Shown here in pieces: positions 19,201 through 31,200 of a stretch of DNA of 64,000 nucleotides. The position numbers are program-made. Source of the stretch: an uncultured Trueperaceae bacterium (lineage in GTDB: Bacteria; Deinococcota; Deinococci; Deinococcales; Trueperaceae); assembly GCA_963727505.1 (NCBI GenBank), contig CAVSGP010000009.1:288001-352000 (forward strand), written 5' to 3'. How positions within the stretch are numbered: the stretch's first letter is position 1; each line of letters begins with the position of its first letter.

Positions 19201-22200
19201 GCGATGTGCCCTTCGGGCGGGGGACGGGCGCGGCGCTCGAGGCGCTGGTGGGATGACGGAGGTGGTGCTGGTACGTCACGCCTCCTCGCGCCCCCAGGCC
19301 GATGTGCCCGCATCGCGGTGGAGGCTTCGGGAGGGCGCGAGCGAGAGCATCCGGACGCTGGCCAGCCGCCTGCAACCGCTCGAGCTCGACCTCGTGGTGG
19401 CCAGCATCGAGCCGAAAGCCGTCGCCACCGGCCGGGGCCTCGCCCGACACCTCGAGCTGCCGTTCGCGTCCGCGCCGCGGCTGCACGAGCACGAGCGCGG
19501 CAACCTGCCGCTGCTCGGCGAGGACGCCTGGCAGGGCACCTTGCGGCGCTTCTTCCGTCATCCCGACGTGCTGGTGTTCGGTCGCGAGACCGCCACGGAG
19601 GCCCGGGAGCGCTTCCGCGACGGCCTGCAGGCTGCGCTCGAGCGCAACCCTGGCGCACGCCCGGCGGTCGTCGCGCACGGCACGGTCATGAGCCTGTTGG
19701 TAGCGGGCCCGAGTGGCCTCGACCCGTACGAGCTGTGGCGCAACCTGCAGATGCCGGAAGCCTGGGTGGTGCGCTGGCCCGAGATGACGCTCCAGCGCCG
19801 TATCGCCGCATCGTGAGGATGAGGCGGGCTCAACCGGTGAGGCGCTTCCAGCGCCACCACATGCGCAGCAGCCCGCCCTGCCGGTCCATCTCGAACGCCC
19901 CGAAGTCGCCGTCGAAGCGCCGCGCCACGCGGTAGCGGGGCTCGTAGCGCGTGCGGAACACCGCGTCGCCGTCATCGCTGCCGCTGAACCCGCGCTCCGC
20001 CCGGGACCCGAGGCGCGCCGCCGCCTGCTCCGGCGAGCGGTAGGGATAGTGCTTGAGGATCGGCATACGCCGGTAGGGCAGGACGCCAACGCCGCGCGGG
20101 AACACGCGCCCGTGCTCGCCGGGACGGTAGCGGGCGCCCGCACGGTCGCGGAACTGACGCACCTCCACCCAGAACGGCGAGTACCAGCGGACACGCTCTT
20201 GCACCGGCACCTCCAGATCGACCGGGCGGTCGTCGGGGTGGAGGAAGAACTGCATCACCGCCCAGTTGACGATGCGGGCCCCCTGCCGCTCGGCGTCGAC
20301 GGACACGGCGCGCGGGTCGTCGTGGAAGATCTCGTCAGCGTGCATCAGCGTGTACCAGTGGCCCGGGCCATAGCGTTGGCGAGCCACGTCGAGGAGCGCC
20401 TGCCGGTGGTAGTCGCGCACCCGGGTGCCGGGAGCCACGTCCGCGTCGCGCAGCAGCAGTGCGACCGCGGGGTGGGCCGCCAGGCGCTCGGCGGTACCGT
20501 CGTCCGAGCCATCCAGCGCCAGGATGGCGTCGACCCCGCCGGCGTTGGCCTCCAGCATCTCGTCGATGATGTCGACCTCGTTATAGGTGAGGAGGAGCCC
20601 GATGTTCACGCCGCAGAGCCCGGAGAGGGTCGGGACGCGAGCGAACTCGACAGCGTCCCTTCGTTGAGATGGAGCGTCCGGTCCGCGGCTCGCACGATGG
20701 CGGGCCGGTGCGCGACTGCGACCACGAGGCGTTCGTGCGCCTGTTCCTGAAGCATCGCAACGAGGCCCGCCTCGCTCGTCTCGTCGAGGCTCGAAGTGGG
20801 CTCGTCCAGCAACAACACCCGGGGTTGCGTGAGCAGTGCGCGGGCCATGGCAAGTCGCTGCCGCTGGCCGCCCGACAAACCGGCACCGTCCTCGAGGAGT
20901 TCGTGATCGAGGCCGCGCGGGAGACGGCGCACCATCTCTGCCAACCCGACCGCCTCCAACGCCCCCCACAAGGCGTCGTCGTGCAACGCGCGACCCATGA
21001 GGAGGCTCTGGCGCAGCGGTCCGGACAGCACCTCGTGGGCCTGCGGAACGTAACTGACGCGTGAGCGCAGAACGCTCTCGGGAAGGCCATCGAGCGCTTC
21101 GCCATCGAGCCAGATGCAGCCCTGAACGGGCCGGAGGAATCCGAGGAGGAGTCGGAGAAGGGTGGTCTTGCCGGTGCCGCTCTCGCCGGTGACGGCTACG
21201 AGACCGCGCTCGGGCAGGGTCGCGTCGATGCCTTCGAGGATCCAGGGACCGCCCGGGTAGGCGAAGGAGATACCGTCGAGCTCGAGCCCCCGGTCGTACC
21301 GGGCTCCGGCGCACGATCGCTCCGAGACCTGGGGCCGGGCCCCGTCGGCGTCCGCCAGCACGCGAAGTCGTTTGTCCGCCGCACGCGCCTCACGCAACAG
21401 CGCATAGCCCTTGGGCAAGAGCTGCGACGGTGTGGACAGGAGGGCGACCAGCGTGACGAACGAGACCAACTGCCCCGCGGACATGACCCCGCGTTGGACA
21501 CTGCCCGCGAGAAGGACGACGAGGAGGCCCACGGCTGCGAACAGCAGGATCTGGGTGATGGGGATCTGCACCCCGGAGATGAGACTCCGCTGCGCCATCG
21601 CGCGGGCGGTGCGGCGGTTCTCCGGTTCGAATCTCTCCAACATCATCGATTCGGCGTCGAAGGCGCGTACCGTTTCGTGGTGCTTGAGCCCCTCCTGGAT
21701 GTGACGCCCCAGCGCCTCGGTGCCGATCTGCGACCGTTCGGCCACCCGCTCCAGCGCTCCGCCCACCCACCGGAGCACCAGCAACGTCGGGAGCCCGAAG
21801 GCGACCAGCAGCAAGGAAGCGCTTCCGTTGGTCCGGAACAGGTACGCCAGGATGGCCAGAACCGTGCCAGATTCGGCCACCAGGGTGCCGATGCCGAAGT
21901 GGAAGTAGGTCTCGATCTCGCGCAGGTCGGTCAGGATCCTGCTGGCGAGGCCGCCGCTGCTTCCCGGCAGGGCGCCCGGTGGTCGGAGCAACAGGCGGCG
22001 GTACAGTCCGCTTCGCCACGATCGGGTGACGTACGCCGCCGAGCGGCCGAGGAGAGCGTCCTGGGCCCAGAGCGCCACGGCTCCGATGAAGGCCACTGTC
22101 CCGGCGGTGACCAGGATCAGGGGCATGCGAGAGAGATCGTGCTTGTTGACGACCTGATCGAAGATCGGCGTCACGAAGGCAGGGATGATGGCGACCCGCA

Positions 22201-28200: not shown

Positions 28201-31200
28201 CGATCTCGCCCGTGCTGCGCTGGCTGGAGAGGCGCACGTTGATCGTGACGGCCGACACGCCGGGCGCCCGGAACACGTTCGTCGCCAGCGTCTGCAGGGG
28301 GCTACCGATCAGCTGCGCGGCGACCTTGGCGATGTCGTTCGGGTCGTCGGCCTGCTCGACGAGATTGAGCCTGTCGCCGGCGGCGAGATCGATCTCCCAA
28401 CCGATCTGAGCGTAGCCGCCGGTGGTCTCGGCAAGGCTGCGGTCGATGAGTTGCTGGCTGGCGGCGGCGGCGAGATGCGGATAGAGGCGTTCGTCGGCGG
28501 CCATCTCCTCGTGGTAGGTGGTGCTGCCGGCCGGGGCGTCGACCGTCAACGTCATCGGGATCATGGCGGGTCCGTCTCCGAGGGTGCCTGCCACGGCGGC
28601 GGGACGGTCCTGCACGATGGTGCCGAGTGGCTTCTGGCCGCTGTTGGCGAGCTTGAAGGGCACCACCGAGCTGGACACCACCGCGGTCACGTACGCCGGC
28701 GCCATCGGTAGCGCTACGCTGCCGATGCCGAGGAGTGGGTGGCCGAAGGCGAGCACGTGGTCGCCTTCGATCGCGGTCACCGTGCCCACTGCCCCGATGG
28801 TGACGTCCCCCCGGGCCAGCTCCACGCTGATGGGACTGCCGGGCTCGAGGGTGTACGGCGGGGTGTCGCCCGCCGGCAACGAGCCCGACGCCTGGGCAGG
28901 GAAGGGAGTGAGGCGCGTGGCGCGGAACAGTGGCGCCAGCAGGTCGGCCGCTCGTGGGTCCACGCCCGACAGCAGGATGGGTGTCGACGCCGGTACGGCG
29001 AGACCCAGGCCCGCCACCGCCACGGGTCCGTTGGGCGGGCCGTGCGCGCTATCCGTGGCGGCCTTTCGCATCACGGCGATGGGGGTGATCATCGCCAGGT
29101 GATGATCGGCCGACGGGAAGACGTAGCTCACGGCGCCCAGCAGGCGCGGTCCGTCGACGGTGGAGAGGTAGACCGGGCTGCCACTCATGCCCGCGGACAC
29201 GCCGCCGCTGGTGTCGATGAAGTCGCCCGAGGCGCGCACGAGCACCAGCGGGAAGCCGGGCCCGGCGTCGGACTGGATCGACAGCACGGTGACCGCGAAG
29301 CGGACCAGCGCGTTGCCGGGCCCGGCGGTGAGGCCGTAGCCCTTCATGCCGGCCTCGACCTGCGCGAGGGGCAGGTCCGGCGCCGCCGCCGGCGGCGCCG
29401 CCGCTCCGGACGCCGGTGGGAACACCCAGCTCCCTACCAGCAGCAGTGCGAGGCCAAGGAGCGTCGCATGCCAGCGGGCAACGTCCGGCTTCCGGGGGGC
29501 CCGCGTGGCGGCACCTCGGCGGCTGCTCCACGCCGGCGGCCCCCGCCGCCAGGATGCACAGCACGCGAACGCGCACCGTAGCGTGCGGGTGCGCGGCGCC
29601 GTTCGGCGGCCCGCCATCGCTAGCGGCGGAGGAAGTTGTCGGAGATCAGTGCGTCGCGCAGCACGTGGATCATGTCGAGCGCCTGACCGGTGCCGAGCGC
29701 CACCGCGTCGATGGCGTTGTCGGCCACCACGACCGGGATGCCGGTGGTCTGCCGGAGCAGCTCGTCGAAGTTGCGCAGCAGCGAACCGCCCCCGGTCATG
29801 ATGATGCCACGGTCGATGACGTCGGACACGAGCTCGGGCGGGGCCAGCTCGAGCACCCGGCGGACGCCGTCGGCGATCTTCTGGATCGGTTCGCGCAGGG
29901 CCTCCACCGTGTCCTCGGTGGTGACCTTGATGGTCTTGGGCAGGCCGTTGATGAGGTCGCGGCCGCGCACATCGAGCTCGCGGTTGTCCTCGGGGCCCCT
30001 CACCACGGCGGCGCCGACGCGCATCTTGACTTCCTCGGCGGTCCGCTCGCCGATGAGGAGGTTCTCCTTGTGCCGGATGTGCCGGATGATGGCCTCGTCG
30101 AACTCGTTGCCCGCGATGCGCAGGCTCTCCGACACGACGATTCCGCCCAGACTGATGATGGCGATGTCGGTGGTGCCGCCGCCGATGTCCACGATCATCG
30201 AGCCAGTGGGCTCGGCGATGGCGACCCCCGCTCCGATGGCGGCGGCCAGCGGCTCCTCGATCAGGAACGCCTTGCGGGCTCCGACCTCGCGGGTCGCCTG
30301 CAGCACGGCGCGGCGCTCCACCTCCGTGACGCCCGACGGGACGCACACCATGATGTGAGGCTTGAACAGGCGGCCGGGGCCGGTGATCACCTTGCGCACG
30401 AACGCCTTGAGCATCTTTTCGGTGAGGTCGTAGTCAGCAATGACGCCGTCACGCATGGGGCGGACGGCGACGATGTTGCCGGGCGTGCGGCCGAGCATCC
30501 TGTAGGCCTCGTCACCAACCGCCTTCACATCGCCGGTATCCCGGACCATGGCGATCACCGAGGGCTCTCGGAGCATGATGCCCTTGCCCTTGACGTAAAT
30601 CAGGACGGTGGCCGTCCCTAGATCGACTCCGATCTCCTGTCCCAACCTGAAGAACATGCTTTCTCCAACCCGAGCGGCCCTGATGCGATGGGTGCACAGC
30701 GACGGGGCAGTATACCCTTCTGGAGCGGTCGTGCGTCCCGGGCCAGCGCGGCCGGGACGCCGTCGGGGGGCGTGCCGGCCGGGACGCAGATCGCCCGGTG
30801 GCCCGCTACAGGTAGACCGCCTCCGCGGGATCCCCCAAGGCGGCCATGGATGCCGTCAGGGCCGCGTCAGGGCCACATCCCTCGATCACCCTGTCGGATC
30901 CGATGCGCTCGACCAGCGAGCTACGACTGAGTTTCTCGGTCGGATGGAGCGTCTCGAGACGAAGGTCGGTCGGGTCCTCCGGTCGGCGGTAGCGCGCGGC
31001 GTAGACGTTGCCGCGGCGGGCGTCGAGAGCGGCGATGCCGGACTCGCCCGGCAACAGGCCCGCAAGCGCCAGCGCCGCCAGCGTCGAGGCGCCGCCGAGG
31101 GGCACGCCCCATGCCCGCGCCAGACCCCGCCCGGTGGCGATGCCGACGCGCACTCCGGTGTAGGAGCCCGGTCCTACGCCGACCCCGATGCCCGTCACGA

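What a model noticed while it worked through the whole genome (the two positions that open the first line are those of the whole stretch)
19830..29347. Lipid A gene cluster with GnnA but no LpxK, Kdo transferase or Kdo synthesis genes
One operon (minus strand) holds lpxD (g02223), lpxC (g02222), a GnnA-like UDP-GlcNAc 3-dehydrogenase (g02221, 40% to A. ferrooxidans GnnA), fabZ (g02220), lpxA (g02219), a divergent lpxB (g02218), an MsbA-like ABC exporter (g02217) and a GT2 glycosyltransferase (g02216), headed by an unknown 569-aa protein (g02224). The later Raetz-pathway genes are not found: no LpxK, no WaaA, no KdsB, no KdsA (both DAHP-synthase-family genes are aromatic-pathway enzymes), no LpxI; LpxH unresolved. 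LpxK and WaaA are not found in the family either. The predicted product is a Kdo-free, 4'-unphosphorylated lipid-A-like disaccharide (probably with GlcN3N), not classical LPS.
Evidence so far: Gene table, Pfam, NCBIfam and Swiss-Prot rows. Six-frame searches of this genome (97.4% complete): LpxK 0 hits at E<=1, WaaA best E 0.19, LpxI_C 0 hits, KdsB family best 21.6 bits, on the IspD gene. In 101 Trueperaceae genomes: LpxC 88, WaaA 0, LpxK 0. Atlas features put g02224 with Peptidase_S55-domain proteins (score 0.96; call 93).
(Added by a program. Inside this text positions count along the whole contig: contig position 288,001 is position 1 of the stretch shown here. "Call 12" and the like, gene names such as g00115 and contig names such as C1 are that model's own, and its searches are not shown. 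The text may have been shortened before it was handed on; [...] marks where a part breaks off. The agent that wrote the report below was given it as the finding of a first reader that could run no searches.)

Follow-up and report, generated by a model that had tools for sequence, protein, structure and literature searches.

The report
Kdo-free lipid A operon lacking LpxB
A conserved gene cluster in this Deinococcus-relative encodes the first half of the outer-membrane lipid A pathway but none of the textbook later steps, and the gene read as the sugar-joining enzyme LpxB is really a little-studied sister enzyme, so the finished lipid is probably a stripped-down kind whose last steps are unknown.

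Summary
Window 19830-30657 (minus strand) carries one tightly coupled operon: mreB, g02224, lpxD, lpxC, gnnA-like, fabZ, lpxA, a GT19-like gene, an ABC exporter and a GT2 gene. In this genome (97.4% complete) I found no LpxK, WaaA, KdsA, KdsB, LpxH, LpxI, LptD or LpxL. LpxK and WaaA reached the cut-off in 0 of 121 genomes of the family.

Two corrections. First, a lipid A pathway that stops after four enzymes, in the cluster order lpxD-lpxC-fabZ-lpxA-lpxB, and gives LPS without Kdo or phosphate, is already in print for Cyanobacteria and Dictyoglomi (Opiyo 2010). Second, the "divergent lpxB" is not an LpxB orthologue. It belongs to a paralogous GT19 family, here called P. In other Terrabacteria P lies directly after a canonical lpxB and before an MsbA-like exporter. 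In 75 P-bearing genomes outside the phylum, only 2 have LpxK and WaaA. No canonical LpxB was found in 251 Deinococcota genomes. The Trueperaceae P proteins also lack an acidic residue that is invariant in P elsewhere.

So "Kdo-free, no 4'-kinase" is supported, but "disaccharide" is not shown. This is a new variant of a known kind.

The parts
29620..30657 (-). mreB, first gene of the conserved block
   Evidence: MreB_Mbl 450.8 bits. A homologue lies upstream of the lpx genes in 60 of 80 Deinococcota loci, and in all six regions examined from other families of the phylum (L189-L194).
27638..29617 (-). g02224: exported protein with sub-threshold likeness to SpoIVB-type S55 serine peptidase (GMSGSP motif). 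The start is uncertain: ATG at 29617 gives 659 aa; the first-stage start at 29347 gives 569 aa.
   Evidence: Peptidase_S55 18.7 bits against a cut-off of 25. No solved relative by sequence. GC3 rises at the codon of the 29617 ATG. A homologue is present in 55 of 80 related loci; 8 loci have the full gene order (mreB to the exporter) without it.
26622..27641 (-). lpxD, UDP-3-O-acylglucosamine N-acyltransferase
   Evidence: NF002060 346 bits against 207; TIGR01853 322 against 242.5.
25850..26635 (-). lpxC, deacetylase
   Evidence: Pfam LpxC 201 bits. TIGR00325 scores 164, below its cut-off of 187.
24888..25853 (-). GnnA-like GFO/IDH/MocA dehydrogenase, candidate UDP-GlcNAc 3-dehydrogenase
   Evidence: GFO_IDH_MocA 110.6 bits. 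Best solved relative is 7bvj_A, E 3.8e-44. A homologue sits in the same place in 68 of 80 related loci, and between fabZ and lpxA in Armatimonadota and Chloroflexota clusters.
24387..24809 (-). fabZ
   Evidence: NF000582 153 bits against 113.
23586..24371 (-). lpxA, first acyltransferase
   Evidence: NF003657 246.3 bits against 226.
22315..23583 (-). It is the only GT19 gene that goes with the lpx genes in this phylum.
   Evidence: Pfam LpxB 24.5 bits against 22.6; TIGR00215 20.2 against 190. hhalign to canonical LpxB: probability 100, E 3.6e-41. The tree puts it in the P clade (support 99), not the LpxB clade. AF2 model is a GT-B fold, pLDDT 87.8.
20606..22318 (-). ABC exporter (half-transporter, MsbA-like), the conserved partner of P
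   Evidence: ABC_membrane plus ABC_tran. Below every NCBIfam equivalog cut-off. A homologue follows P in 69 of 80 Deinococcota loci and 43 of 80 loci of other phyla.
19830..20609 (-). GT2 glycosyltransferase, accessory
   Evidence: Glyco_tranf_2_4 39 bits. A homologue is present in only 8 of 80 related loci.

Best explanation
This is the phylum-wide Deinococcota operon for a reduced lipid-A-like outer-membrane glycolipid.

Shown by strong homology and synteny: GnnA-like dehydrogenase, LpxA, LpxC and LpxD, with FabZ at the branch point, build a UDP-linked 2,3-diacylated glucosamine. With GnnA and a DegT aminotransferase encoded elsewhere, this is probably the 2,3-diamino sugar GlcN3N.

Shown by search: no LpxH, LpxI or LpxG-type hydrolase, no canonical LpxB, no LpxK, no WaaA, no Kdo synthesis and no LpxL.

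Inferred: the next step is done by P. P is a full-length homologue of LpxB that keeps LpxB's UDP-binding residues, but it belongs to a separate GT19 family. The product is then flipped by the adjacent MsbA-like ABC exporter.

My pick for P in this phylum, at about 45%, is that it uses the UDP-diacyl sugar as donor and forms the glycosidic bond of the mature lipid. That would give a lipid free of Kdo, 4'-phosphate and secondary acyl chains, most likely a beta-1,6 di-GlcN3N disaccharide. The main alternative, at about 30%, is listed as the first rival.

The pathway is the Terrabacterial or cyanobacterial reduced type, not a broken Raetz pathway.
For: - Early enzymes score above or near curated cut-offs.
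- The order mreB-(g02224)-lpxD-lpxC-gnnA-fabZ-lpxA-P-ABC is seen in 46 of 80 related loci in full and in 8 more without g02224. The rest are mostly cut by contig ends. The same order occurs in 5 of 6 regions examined from three other families of the phylum.
- The absences hold in the own genome and in 121 family genomes.
- P and LpxC are distributed alike across 251 genomes of the phylum: P in f1 60/69, f3 23/61, f5 5/5, f2 1/103; LpxC in f1 58/69, f3 29/61, f5 5/5, f2 0/103.
- No PF02684 hit above 28.4 bits in those 251 genomes.
- P is homologous to LpxB over 405 columns. It keeps the equivalents of E15, S200, R201 and E281 of E. coli LpxB.
- In the same searches the control Synechococcus elongatus matches LpxC and LpxB but not LpxK or WaaA. 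This matches Opiyo 2010.
Against: - Outside the phylum P nearly always accompanies a true LpxB. Of 25 genomes, 22 have one at 198 bits or more and 1 more has one cut by a contig end. It lies directly upstream of P in 33 of 80 loci. P's ancestral job is therefore unlikely to be the LpxB reaction.
- No enzyme that would make an acceptor free of UDP was found.
- In 77 of 77 Trueperaceae-type P proteins, the acidic residue of the LGGD loop is replaced by N, S, G, A, P or T. This loop lies beside the position of LpxB's predicted catalytic base D98, and the residue is acidic in 77 of 77 ungapped P proteins of other phyla.
- No lipid chemistry for Truepera or Meiothermus lipid A came up.
- All absences rest on profile searches, most of them in MAGs.
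Confidence: 0.55

Rival explanations
1. P is not a disaccharide synthase. In all P-bearing bacteria it adds a sugar to the 6-hydroxyl of the non-reducing diacyl-glucosamine unit just before flipping, standing in for Kdo transfer. In Deinococcota, which have no LpxB, the mature anchor would then be a monosaccharide diacyl-GlcN3N carrying that sugar.
For: - P sits after canonical lpxB and before the exporter in other phyla.
- 73 of 75 P-bearing genomes outside the phylum lack both LpxK and WaaA.
- 46 family-wide conserved positions are shared by Trueperaceae-type P and P of other phyla, which suggests the same basic chemistry.
- No acceptor-making LpxH, LpxI or LpxG in this genome.
Against: - I know of no mature monosaccharide lipid A in nature (recalled, not searched).
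- The Deinococcota P clade has a long stem of 1.02, and the Trueperaceae-type proteins have an altered loop. Both suggest a change of substrate.
- Two P-bearing genomes also have LpxK and WaaA (G020, G349).
Confidence: 0.3
2. The later steps exist but are carried out by enzymes too divergent or unrelated for the profiles to see, and the cell makes a fuller LPS with an acidic inner-core sugar.
For: - P itself is barely seen by the LpxB profile, which shows how far these genomes diverge.
- Lpt-like genes are present: LptF/G 3 hits, LptD_N 2 hits.
- A Wzy_C/O-antigen-ligase-like gene lies in a polysaccharide cluster on contig C15.
Against: - The absences are consistent over 121 family genomes and 73 of 75 P-bearing genomes of other phyla.
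- Both DAHP-synthase-family genes are clearly aromatic-pathway enzymes.
- The same Lpt-like families also match in Thermus and Deinococcus, whose outer membrane a 2026 review (PMC13721041, passage) describes as lacking lipopolysaccharide.
- Cyanobacterial LPS with the same gene set is reported to lack Kdo and phosphate.
Confidence: 0.08
3. The cluster is a decaying remnant of an ancestral LPS pathway and makes no final product.
For: LPS genes were lost in much of the phylum: LpxC in 0 of 103 genomes of family f2, and two genera of the own family mostly lack it (g2 0 of 3, g13 1 of 3).
Against: - All ten reading frames are intact, with high GC3.
- Gene order is conserved across four families at 35-50% identity.
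- 46 invariant positions are kept in P.
Confidence: 0.03

Closest known systems
Four-enzyme lipid A pathway of Cyanobacteria and Dictyoglomi (Opiyo et al. 2010, PMC3087551; passages read)
   Same: Only the early lpx genes are present. The cluster order is the same, lpxD-lpxC-fabZ-lpxA-'lpxB'. There is no LpxH, LpxK, WaaA or LpxL. The LPS is reported to lack Kdo, heptose and phosphate.
   Different: Here the fourth gene is not a canonical LpxB but the paralogue P. A gnnA-like gene is inserted, mreB heads the block and an ABC exporter ends it. The host phylum is Deinococcota.
Raetz pathway for Kdo2-lipid A (E. coli)
   Same: LpxA, LpxC, LpxD and FabZ, and an MsbA-type exporter architecture.
   Different: LpxH, canonical LpxB, LpxK, WaaA, KdsA, KdsB and LpxL were not found.
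E. coli LpxB, glycosyltransferase family GT19 (PDB 5W8S; Bohl et al. 2018, PMC5785501, passages read)
   Same: Homologous over the whole length. GT-B fold. Equivalents of E15, S200, R201 and E281 are kept.
   Different: - Separate clade.
- Far below the TIGR00215 cut-off.
- Two insertions of about 25 residues.
- The N-terminal motif is NGPGELxxW instead of GEASGD.
- Trueperaceae P has no acid at the loop beside D98.
GnnA/GnnB route to GlcN3N lipid A (Acidithiobacillus ferrooxidans, Leptospira; recalled, not read here)
   Same: A GnnA-like dehydrogenase embedded in the lpx cluster. The best solved relative is 7bvj, which I recall to be A. ferrooxidans GnnA.
   Different: No aminotransferase in the cluster. 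Three DegT genes lie elsewhere. A Chloroflexota cluster does carry DegT next to gnnA.
LPS clusters of diderm Firmicutes (Antunes et al. 2016, PMC5007114; passages read)
   Same: lpxC-fabZ-lpxA-lpxI-lpxB followed by msbA. LPS is inferred for the ancestor of Deinococcus-Thermus.
   Different: That paper reports lpxK, waaA and kdsABCD in Negativicutes and Halanaerobiales. The P-bearing Bacillota and Halanaerobiales MAGs searched here had neither LpxK nor WaaA. The passages I read do not mention P.

Membership tests
Raetz Kdo2-lipid A pathway | LpxA, LpxC and LpxD present | tested here: met
   LpxA 246 bits against 226; LpxD 346 against 207; LpxC Pfam 201 bits (TIGR00325 164, below 187).
Raetz Kdo2-lipid A pathway | UDP-diacylglucosamine hydrolase (LpxH, LpxI or LpxG) | tested here: not met
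   LpxH best E 0.44. LpxI_C 0 hits. The LpxG model scores 19 bits on a generic 5'-nucleotidase.
Raetz Kdo2-lipid A pathway | LpxK, WaaA, KdsA, KdsB and LpxL | tested here: not met
   In the family: 0 of 121 for LpxK and 0 of 121 for WaaA.
Four-enzyme lipid A pathway (Cyanobacteria/Dictyoglomi) | [quoted passage not shown] | tested here: met
   Same order, with gnnA inserted. Absences as above. Published pattern read.
Four-enzyme lipid A pathway (Cyanobacteria/Dictyoglomi) | The fourth enzyme is a canonical LpxB | tested here: not met
   The genome has a single PF02684 hit, 23.7 bits, which is P. The best hit in 251 genomes of the phylum is 28.4 bits.
LpxB (GT19, TIGR00215) | Curated score cut-offs | tested here: inconclusive
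   Pfam 24.5 against 22.6, just passed. NCBIfam equivalog 20.2 against 190.25, failed.
LpxB (GT19, TIGR00215) | Falls within the LpxB clade | tested here: not met
   IQ-TREE, 82 rows: canonical clade support 100; P clade support 99, containing the window protein. The phmmer scores are bimodal.
LpxB (GT19, TIGR00215) | UDP-binding residues S200, R201 and E281, and E15 | tested here: met
   GSR, TxE and GE are kept in 77 of 77 Trueperaceae-type P proteins. They were mapped through.
LpxB (GT19, TIGR00215) | Predicted catalytic base D98 | tested here: not met
   The loop after the equivalent strand reads GGN in the window. It is acidic in 0 of 77 Trueperaceae-type P proteins and in 77 of 77 ungapped P proteins of other phyla. 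The residue-level equivalence is uncertain by 1-3 positions.
GnnA (UDP-GlcNAc 3-dehydrogenase) | GFO/IDH/MocA enzyme closest to characterised GnnA, inside an lpx cluster | tested here: met
   Best solved relative 7bvj, E 3.8e-44 (its identity as GnnA is recalled). Synteny in 68 of 80 loci.
GnnA (UDP-GlcNAc 3-dehydrogenase) | Partner aminotransferase GnnB | tested here: inconclusive
   None in the cluster. There are three DegT genes elsewhere. One, at G000:C15:5922-7112, lies beside a second GFO dehydrogenase and an acetyltransferase.
MsbA lipid A flippase | Equivalog score | tested here: not met
   TIGR02203 230 bits against 602; CydD scores slightly higher. The role is inferred from conserved adjacency to P.
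Peptidase S55 (SpoIVB) for g02224 | Pfam gathering score | tested here: not met
   18.7 bits against 25. A GMSGSP motif is visible in the translation.

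The most novel reading that the evidence does not exclude
P is the missing late enzyme of a lipid A route that needs neither LpxK nor Kdo. The route would be shared by diderm Terrabacteria: Sericytochromatia and some cyanobacteria, Limnochordia and other Bacillota, Armatimonadota, Chloroflexota, Dictyoglomi-like lineages and Deinococcota. In Deinococcota, which have no LpxB at all, the outer-membrane anchor would be built without the disaccharide synthase step. 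That would be a lipid A architecture not yet described.
Probability: 0.3. Interest if true: 0.8.

Novelty: new variant of a known kind. Interest (0 to 1): 0.6.

Why it matters
How bacteria that lack LpxK, WaaA and Kdo finish and export their lipid A has been open since the four-enzyme pathway was described in 2010. This locus, and its relatives in at least six phyla, point to one conserved and unstudied gene pair, P plus an MsbA-like exporter, as the place to look. Deinococcota are a natural case in which P works without any LpxB, and Truepera and Meiothermus are cultured, so the product can be determined directly. The result also warns that 'LpxB' calls resting on the Pfam threshold mix two families.

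Tried and rejected
The 9-sequence alignments A3 and A4 worked.
- **Foldseek against the PDB** gave generic GT-B matches. UDP-GlcNAc 2-epimerases came first and LpxB ranked 11th at rmsd about 20, probably because the LpxB crystal is a domain-swapped dimer. It did not discriminate.
- **Sequence search of P against the PDB** gave nothing. The profile search put LpxB first, but only at E 0.05.
- **LpxH analogue.** UshA-N-like metallophosphatases sit in the Armatimonadota and Chloroflexota clusters. Their best relative in this genome is an ordinary full-length 5'-nucleotidase next to ribosomal genes. I rejected it as a specific candidate.
- **The TIGR03492 'LpxB-related' gene as a lipid A partner.** This genome has one (254 bits, G000:C9:380622-381806). 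The family is also in 66 of 103 genomes of family f2, which lack LpxC, so I rejected it.
- **The idea that loss of the LGGD acid coincides with loss of LpxB across the phylum.** Rejected: family f5 keeps D, and f3 and f4 have A with a D three residues on.
- **A suspected broken P in G349** turned out to be a run of 130 N.
- **Paper hits for 'lipid A' with Truepera or Meiothermus** were matches to 'lipid analysis'.
- **Searches for print on the paralogue.** 'LpxB2' returned only Leptospira genomics papers; I also tried Deinococcus-Thermus+LpxA+LpxB, Terrabacteria+LpxK and Halanaerobiales+lipid A+LpxB+Kdo. I found nothing on P, but subscription journals are not in the library.
- **** exceeded 50 loci and was resent with 50.

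Full report
**What is there.** The window has about 70% G+C, so I picked reading frames by third-position GC and by family scans. On the minus strand lie, in order of transcription:

| Gene | Coordinates | Evidence |
|---|---|---|
| mreB | 29620-30657 | MreB_Mbl 450.8 bits |
| g02224 | 27638-29617 | start uncertain |
| lpxD | 26622-27641 | 346 bits |
| lpxC | 25850-26635 | Pfam 201 bits |
| GFO/IDH/MocA dehydrogenase | 24888-25853 | best solved relative 7bvj, E 3.8e-44 |
| fabZ | 24387-24809 | |
| lpxA | 23586-24371 | 246 bits against a cut-off of 226 |
| GT19-like gene | 22315-23583 | Pfam LpxB 24.5 bits (cut-off 22.6) |
| ABC half-transporter | 20606-22318 | |
| GT2 gene | 19830-20609 | |

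I recall 7bvj to be A. ferrooxidans GnnA; the call names it only 'Oxidoreductase, NAD-binding'. Successive genes overlap by a few bases, and the last two start on GTGA overlaps with the preceding stop codon. This is one operon. It converges on serA, a class V aminotransferase and a histidine phosphatase on the plus strand.

**The absences.** In the genome (97.42% complete, 15 contigs):

- LpxK gave 0 hits at E<=10.
- WaaA's N-terminal domain gave a best E of 0.19, and that weak hit lies inside the GT19-like gene.
- LpxI_C gave 0 hits.
- LpxH gave a best E of 0.44.
- The KdsB family gave a best score of 21.6 bits, below its cut-off.
- LptD gave 0 hits, but that profile matches only 2 of the 14 control genomes.
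- The LpxL family gave a best score of 16.9 bits.
- The two DAHP_synth_1 genes pass DAHP-synthase models (546 and 474 bits). They fail the KDO8P models, scoring 101-112 bits against cut-offs of 242-314.

In 121 genomes of the family, LpxK reached its cut-off in 0 (two sub-threshold hits of 20-21 bits), and WaaA matched in 0.

LptF/G (3 hits) and LptD_N (2 hits) are present. They also match in the Thermus and Deinococcus controls, so they say little.

**It is known in kind.** Opiyo et al. 2010 (PMC3087551, passages read) report three things:

- Cyanobacteria and Dictyoglomi have only lpxA, lpxC, lpxD and lpxB.
- Cyanobacterial LPS lacks Kdo, heptose and phosphate.

The window has the same order, with gnnA inserted. 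My own controls agree: Synechococcus elongatus matches LpxC and LpxB but not LpxK or WaaA. Antunes et al. [quoted passage not shown]

**The 'divergent lpxB' is a paralogue.**

- A full scan of 1.84 billion representative proteins found 661 clusters related to the window protein at E<=0.001. They are about 400 residues long and mostly 27-46% identical among the full-length hits listed.
- I scanned 24 of these. Of them, 23 score only 23-62 bits on Pfam LpxB. Of 18 scanned with NCBIfam, 17 fall below both the LpxB model and the 'LpxB-related' model TIGR03492.
- The exception, P0229 (789 aa), is a canonical LpxB (345 bits) fused to a C-terminal member of this family.
- I fetched 80 loci centred on a distant member. 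They come from Sericytochromatia and other Cyanobacteriota, Limnochordia, Halanaerobiales and other Bacillota MAGs, Armatimonadota, Chloroflexota, Aerophobetes and Eremiobacterota.
- I searched 25 of those genomes. Of them, 22 also hold a canonical LpxB of 198-333 bits, and one more holds one cut by a contig end.
- In 33 of the 80 loci a canonical lpxB ORF lies directly upstream of the family member.
- A tree of 82 rows was built from every 2nd of the 33 canonical ORFs, every 2nd of the 79 P ORFs of other phyla, every 6th of the 77 Deinococcota ORFs, the window protein and all 11 TIGR03492-type ORFs. It separates a canonical clade (support 100) from a clade I call P (support 99). The P clade contains the Deinococcota sequences as one group (support 100, stem length 1.02), next to the cyanobacterial P proteins (support 87).
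- P is nevertheless a true GT19 homologue. hhalign of 156 P sequences against the 33 canonical ones gives probability 100 and E 3.6e-41 over 405 columns. The AF2 model is a GT-B fold with pLDDT 87.8.

**No canonical LpxB in the phylum.** In 251 Deinococcota genomes the best PF02684 hit is 28.4 bits. The weak hits, which are P, follow LpxC by family.

| Family | P | LpxC |
|---|---|---|
| f1 | 60/69 | 58/69 |
| f3 | 23/61 | 29/61 |
| f5 | 5/5 | 5/5 |
| f2 | 1/103 | 0/103 |
| f4 | 0/12 | 2/12 |

Synteny by tblastn with the window's proteins covered 80 Deinococcota loci.

- Homologues found: lpxA in 76, fabZ in 75, the ABC exporter in 69, gnnA in 68, lpxC and lpxD in 65 each, mreB in 60, g02224 in 55, and GT2 in 8.
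- The full order occurs in 46 loci, and in 8 more without g02224.
- Six regions taken from other families show the same block in five. One f5 region lacks gnnA, and one shows only mreB-lpxD-lpxC.

**What P goes with.** Among 75 P-bearing genomes outside the phylum, LpxK passes its cut-off in 2 and WaaA in the same 2, G020 and G349. LpxI is present in 13 of the first 25, all of the Bacillota type, in the order lpxI-lpxB-P. P is therefore not an LpxI substitute there. An ABC exporter homologue follows P in 43 of those 80 loci.

Representative clusters:

- **Bacillota:** lptB-lpxC-(nucleotidyltransferase)-fabZ-lpxA-PEMT-lpxI-lpxB-P-ABC-TIGR03492-GT2-epimerase-lptB-lptFG.
- **Armatimonadota:** ompH..lpxC-fabZ-gnnA-lpxA-lpxB-P-ICMT-like-metallophosphatase-TIGR03492.
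- **Chloroflexota:** lpxC/fabZ fusion-DegT-gnnA-lpxA-lpxB-P-PEMT-like-(unknown)-metallophosphatase-TIGR03492.

One caveat. Antunes 2016 (passage) states that Halanaerobiales carry lpxK, waaA and kdsABCD. The five P-bearing 'Halanaerobiales' MAGs I searched had neither LpxK nor WaaA. These may be different lineages, or the searches may have missed the genes.

**Active-site reading.**

- Bohl et al. 2018 (PMC5785501, passages and Table 3) list E15, S17, D98 (predicted base), S200, R201, T277 and E281 for E. coli LpxB.
- A profile of 12 Terrabacterial canonical LpxBs aligns to 5W8N at E 4.5e-95, and shows that D98 is the D of the 'GID' motif.
- In P, the equivalents of E15 (E14), S200/R201 (GSR, positions 181-182) and E281 (E282) are kept in all 77 Trueperaceae-type sequences.
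- The loop after the equivalent strand reads LGGD in P of other phyla. It is acidic in 77 of 77 ungapped sequences, with 2 gapped. In the Trueperaceae-type proteins it is acidic in 0 of 77: N 43, S 20, G 8, A 3, P 2, T 1.
- Conversely, the residue after GSR is D or E in 73 of 77 Trueperaceae-type proteins, against 1 of 79 elsewhere.
- This swap is not phylum-wide. One f5 P keeps GGD, and four f3/f4 proteins read GGAPRD.
- The equivalence of this loop to D98 is uncertain by 1-3 residues, because hhalign places a gap there.

**Mechanism.**

- *Supported by homology and synteny:* UDP-GlcNAc is oxidised at C3 by the GnnA-like enzyme. It is then aminated by a DegT enzyme encoded elsewhere. There are three candidates. 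The one at G000:C15:5922-7112 sits beside a second GFO dehydrogenase, a hexapeptide acetyltransferase, a flippase and a Wzy_C protein. LpxA, LpxC and LpxD then give UDP-2,3-diacyl-GlcN3N.
- *Inferred:* P acts next and the exporter flips the product. I give about 45% to P forming a disaccharide and about 30% to a monosaccharide-based anchor that P decorates. The remainder goes to hidden enzymes or a silent cluster.
- *Not shown here:* expression, any lipid product, P's donor and acceptor, and the route to the outer membrane.

**Other points.**

- g02224 carries a GMSGSP motif and scores 18.7 bits on Peptidase_S55 against a cut-off of 25. It has no solved relative by sequence. It is accessory to the cluster.
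- The genome also has a TIGR03492 protein (254 bits) outside the window. That family occurs in 66 of 103 genomes of family f2, which lack LpxC, so it is not specific to lipid A.
Its follow-up calls the extra LpxB-like gene a widespread unstudied family. I reached the same view before seeing it, and I tested it only on other genomes.

**Verdict.** The finding is a new variant of a published reduced pathway. Its real interest is the P family and the absence of any LpxB in a whole diderm phylum.

Noticed in passing
G000:C9:380622-381806 (L186:6622-7806), about 29 kb beyond the window's end: A TIGR03492 'lipid-A-disaccharide synthase-related protein' (254 bits against 219), lying after aroA, cmk and NAD kinase. 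The same family sits after the exporter in lipid A clusters of Bacillota, Armatimonadota and Chloroflexota. It is also found in 179 of 251 Deinococcota genomes, including ones without lpx genes.
   Followed up: partly
L136:11275-12638 and L169:11071-13052: The Armatimonadota and Chloroflexota lipid A clusters carry an ICMT/PEMT-like membrane methyltransferase and a 250-260 aa metallophosphatase that resembles only the N-terminal half of UshA. The latter is a possible undescribed UDP-diacylglucosamine hydrolase. This genome has no specific counterpart.
   Followed up: partly
protein P0229 (789 aa, metagenome): A natural fusion of a canonical LpxB (345 bits, residues 6-343) with a P-family domain (residues 385-778).
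   Followed up: no
G020 (locus L182) and G349 (locus L144): These are the only 2 of 75 P-bearing genomes with LpxK and WaaA. G020 shows no canonical LpxB at E<=0.001. It may be a case where P serves a full Raetz pathway, or the MAG may be incomplete or mixed.
   Followed up: no
G000:C15:4407-9907 (L188): A polysaccharide cluster with a second GFO dehydrogenase, a hexapeptide acetyltransferase, a DegT aminotransferase, a flippase and a Wzy_C/O-antigen-ligase-like protein. The first three form a set like that for 3-acetamido sugars, and could supply the aminotransferase that the lpx cluster lacks.
   Followed up: partly
G013-G017 (loci L159, L161, L167, L168, L175): Five MAGs labelled Halanaerobiales have lpxI, lpxB and P but no LpxK or WaaA. 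This is at odds with the statement in Antunes 2016 that Halanaerobiales carry lpxK, waaA and kdsABCD.
   Followed up: no
phylum sample, genera g2 and g13 of the window's own family: LpxC was found in 0 of 3 (g2) and 1 of 3 (g13) genomes, all 96-99% complete, and P in 0 of 3 for each genus. This looks like secondary loss of the whole pathway within the family.
   Followed up: no
window 16447-19816, plus strand: serA (D-3-phosphoglycerate dehydrogenase-like, 548 aa), a class V aminotransferase and a histidine-phosphatase-like gene converge on the end of the operon. By family, the aminotransferase is not a GnnB-type enzyme.
   Followed up: partly
L045 and L089: In two Trueperaceae MAGs, P lies without lpxA within 6-10 kb upstream (in L045 the exporter still follows it). 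The block is therefore not always intact.
   Followed up: no
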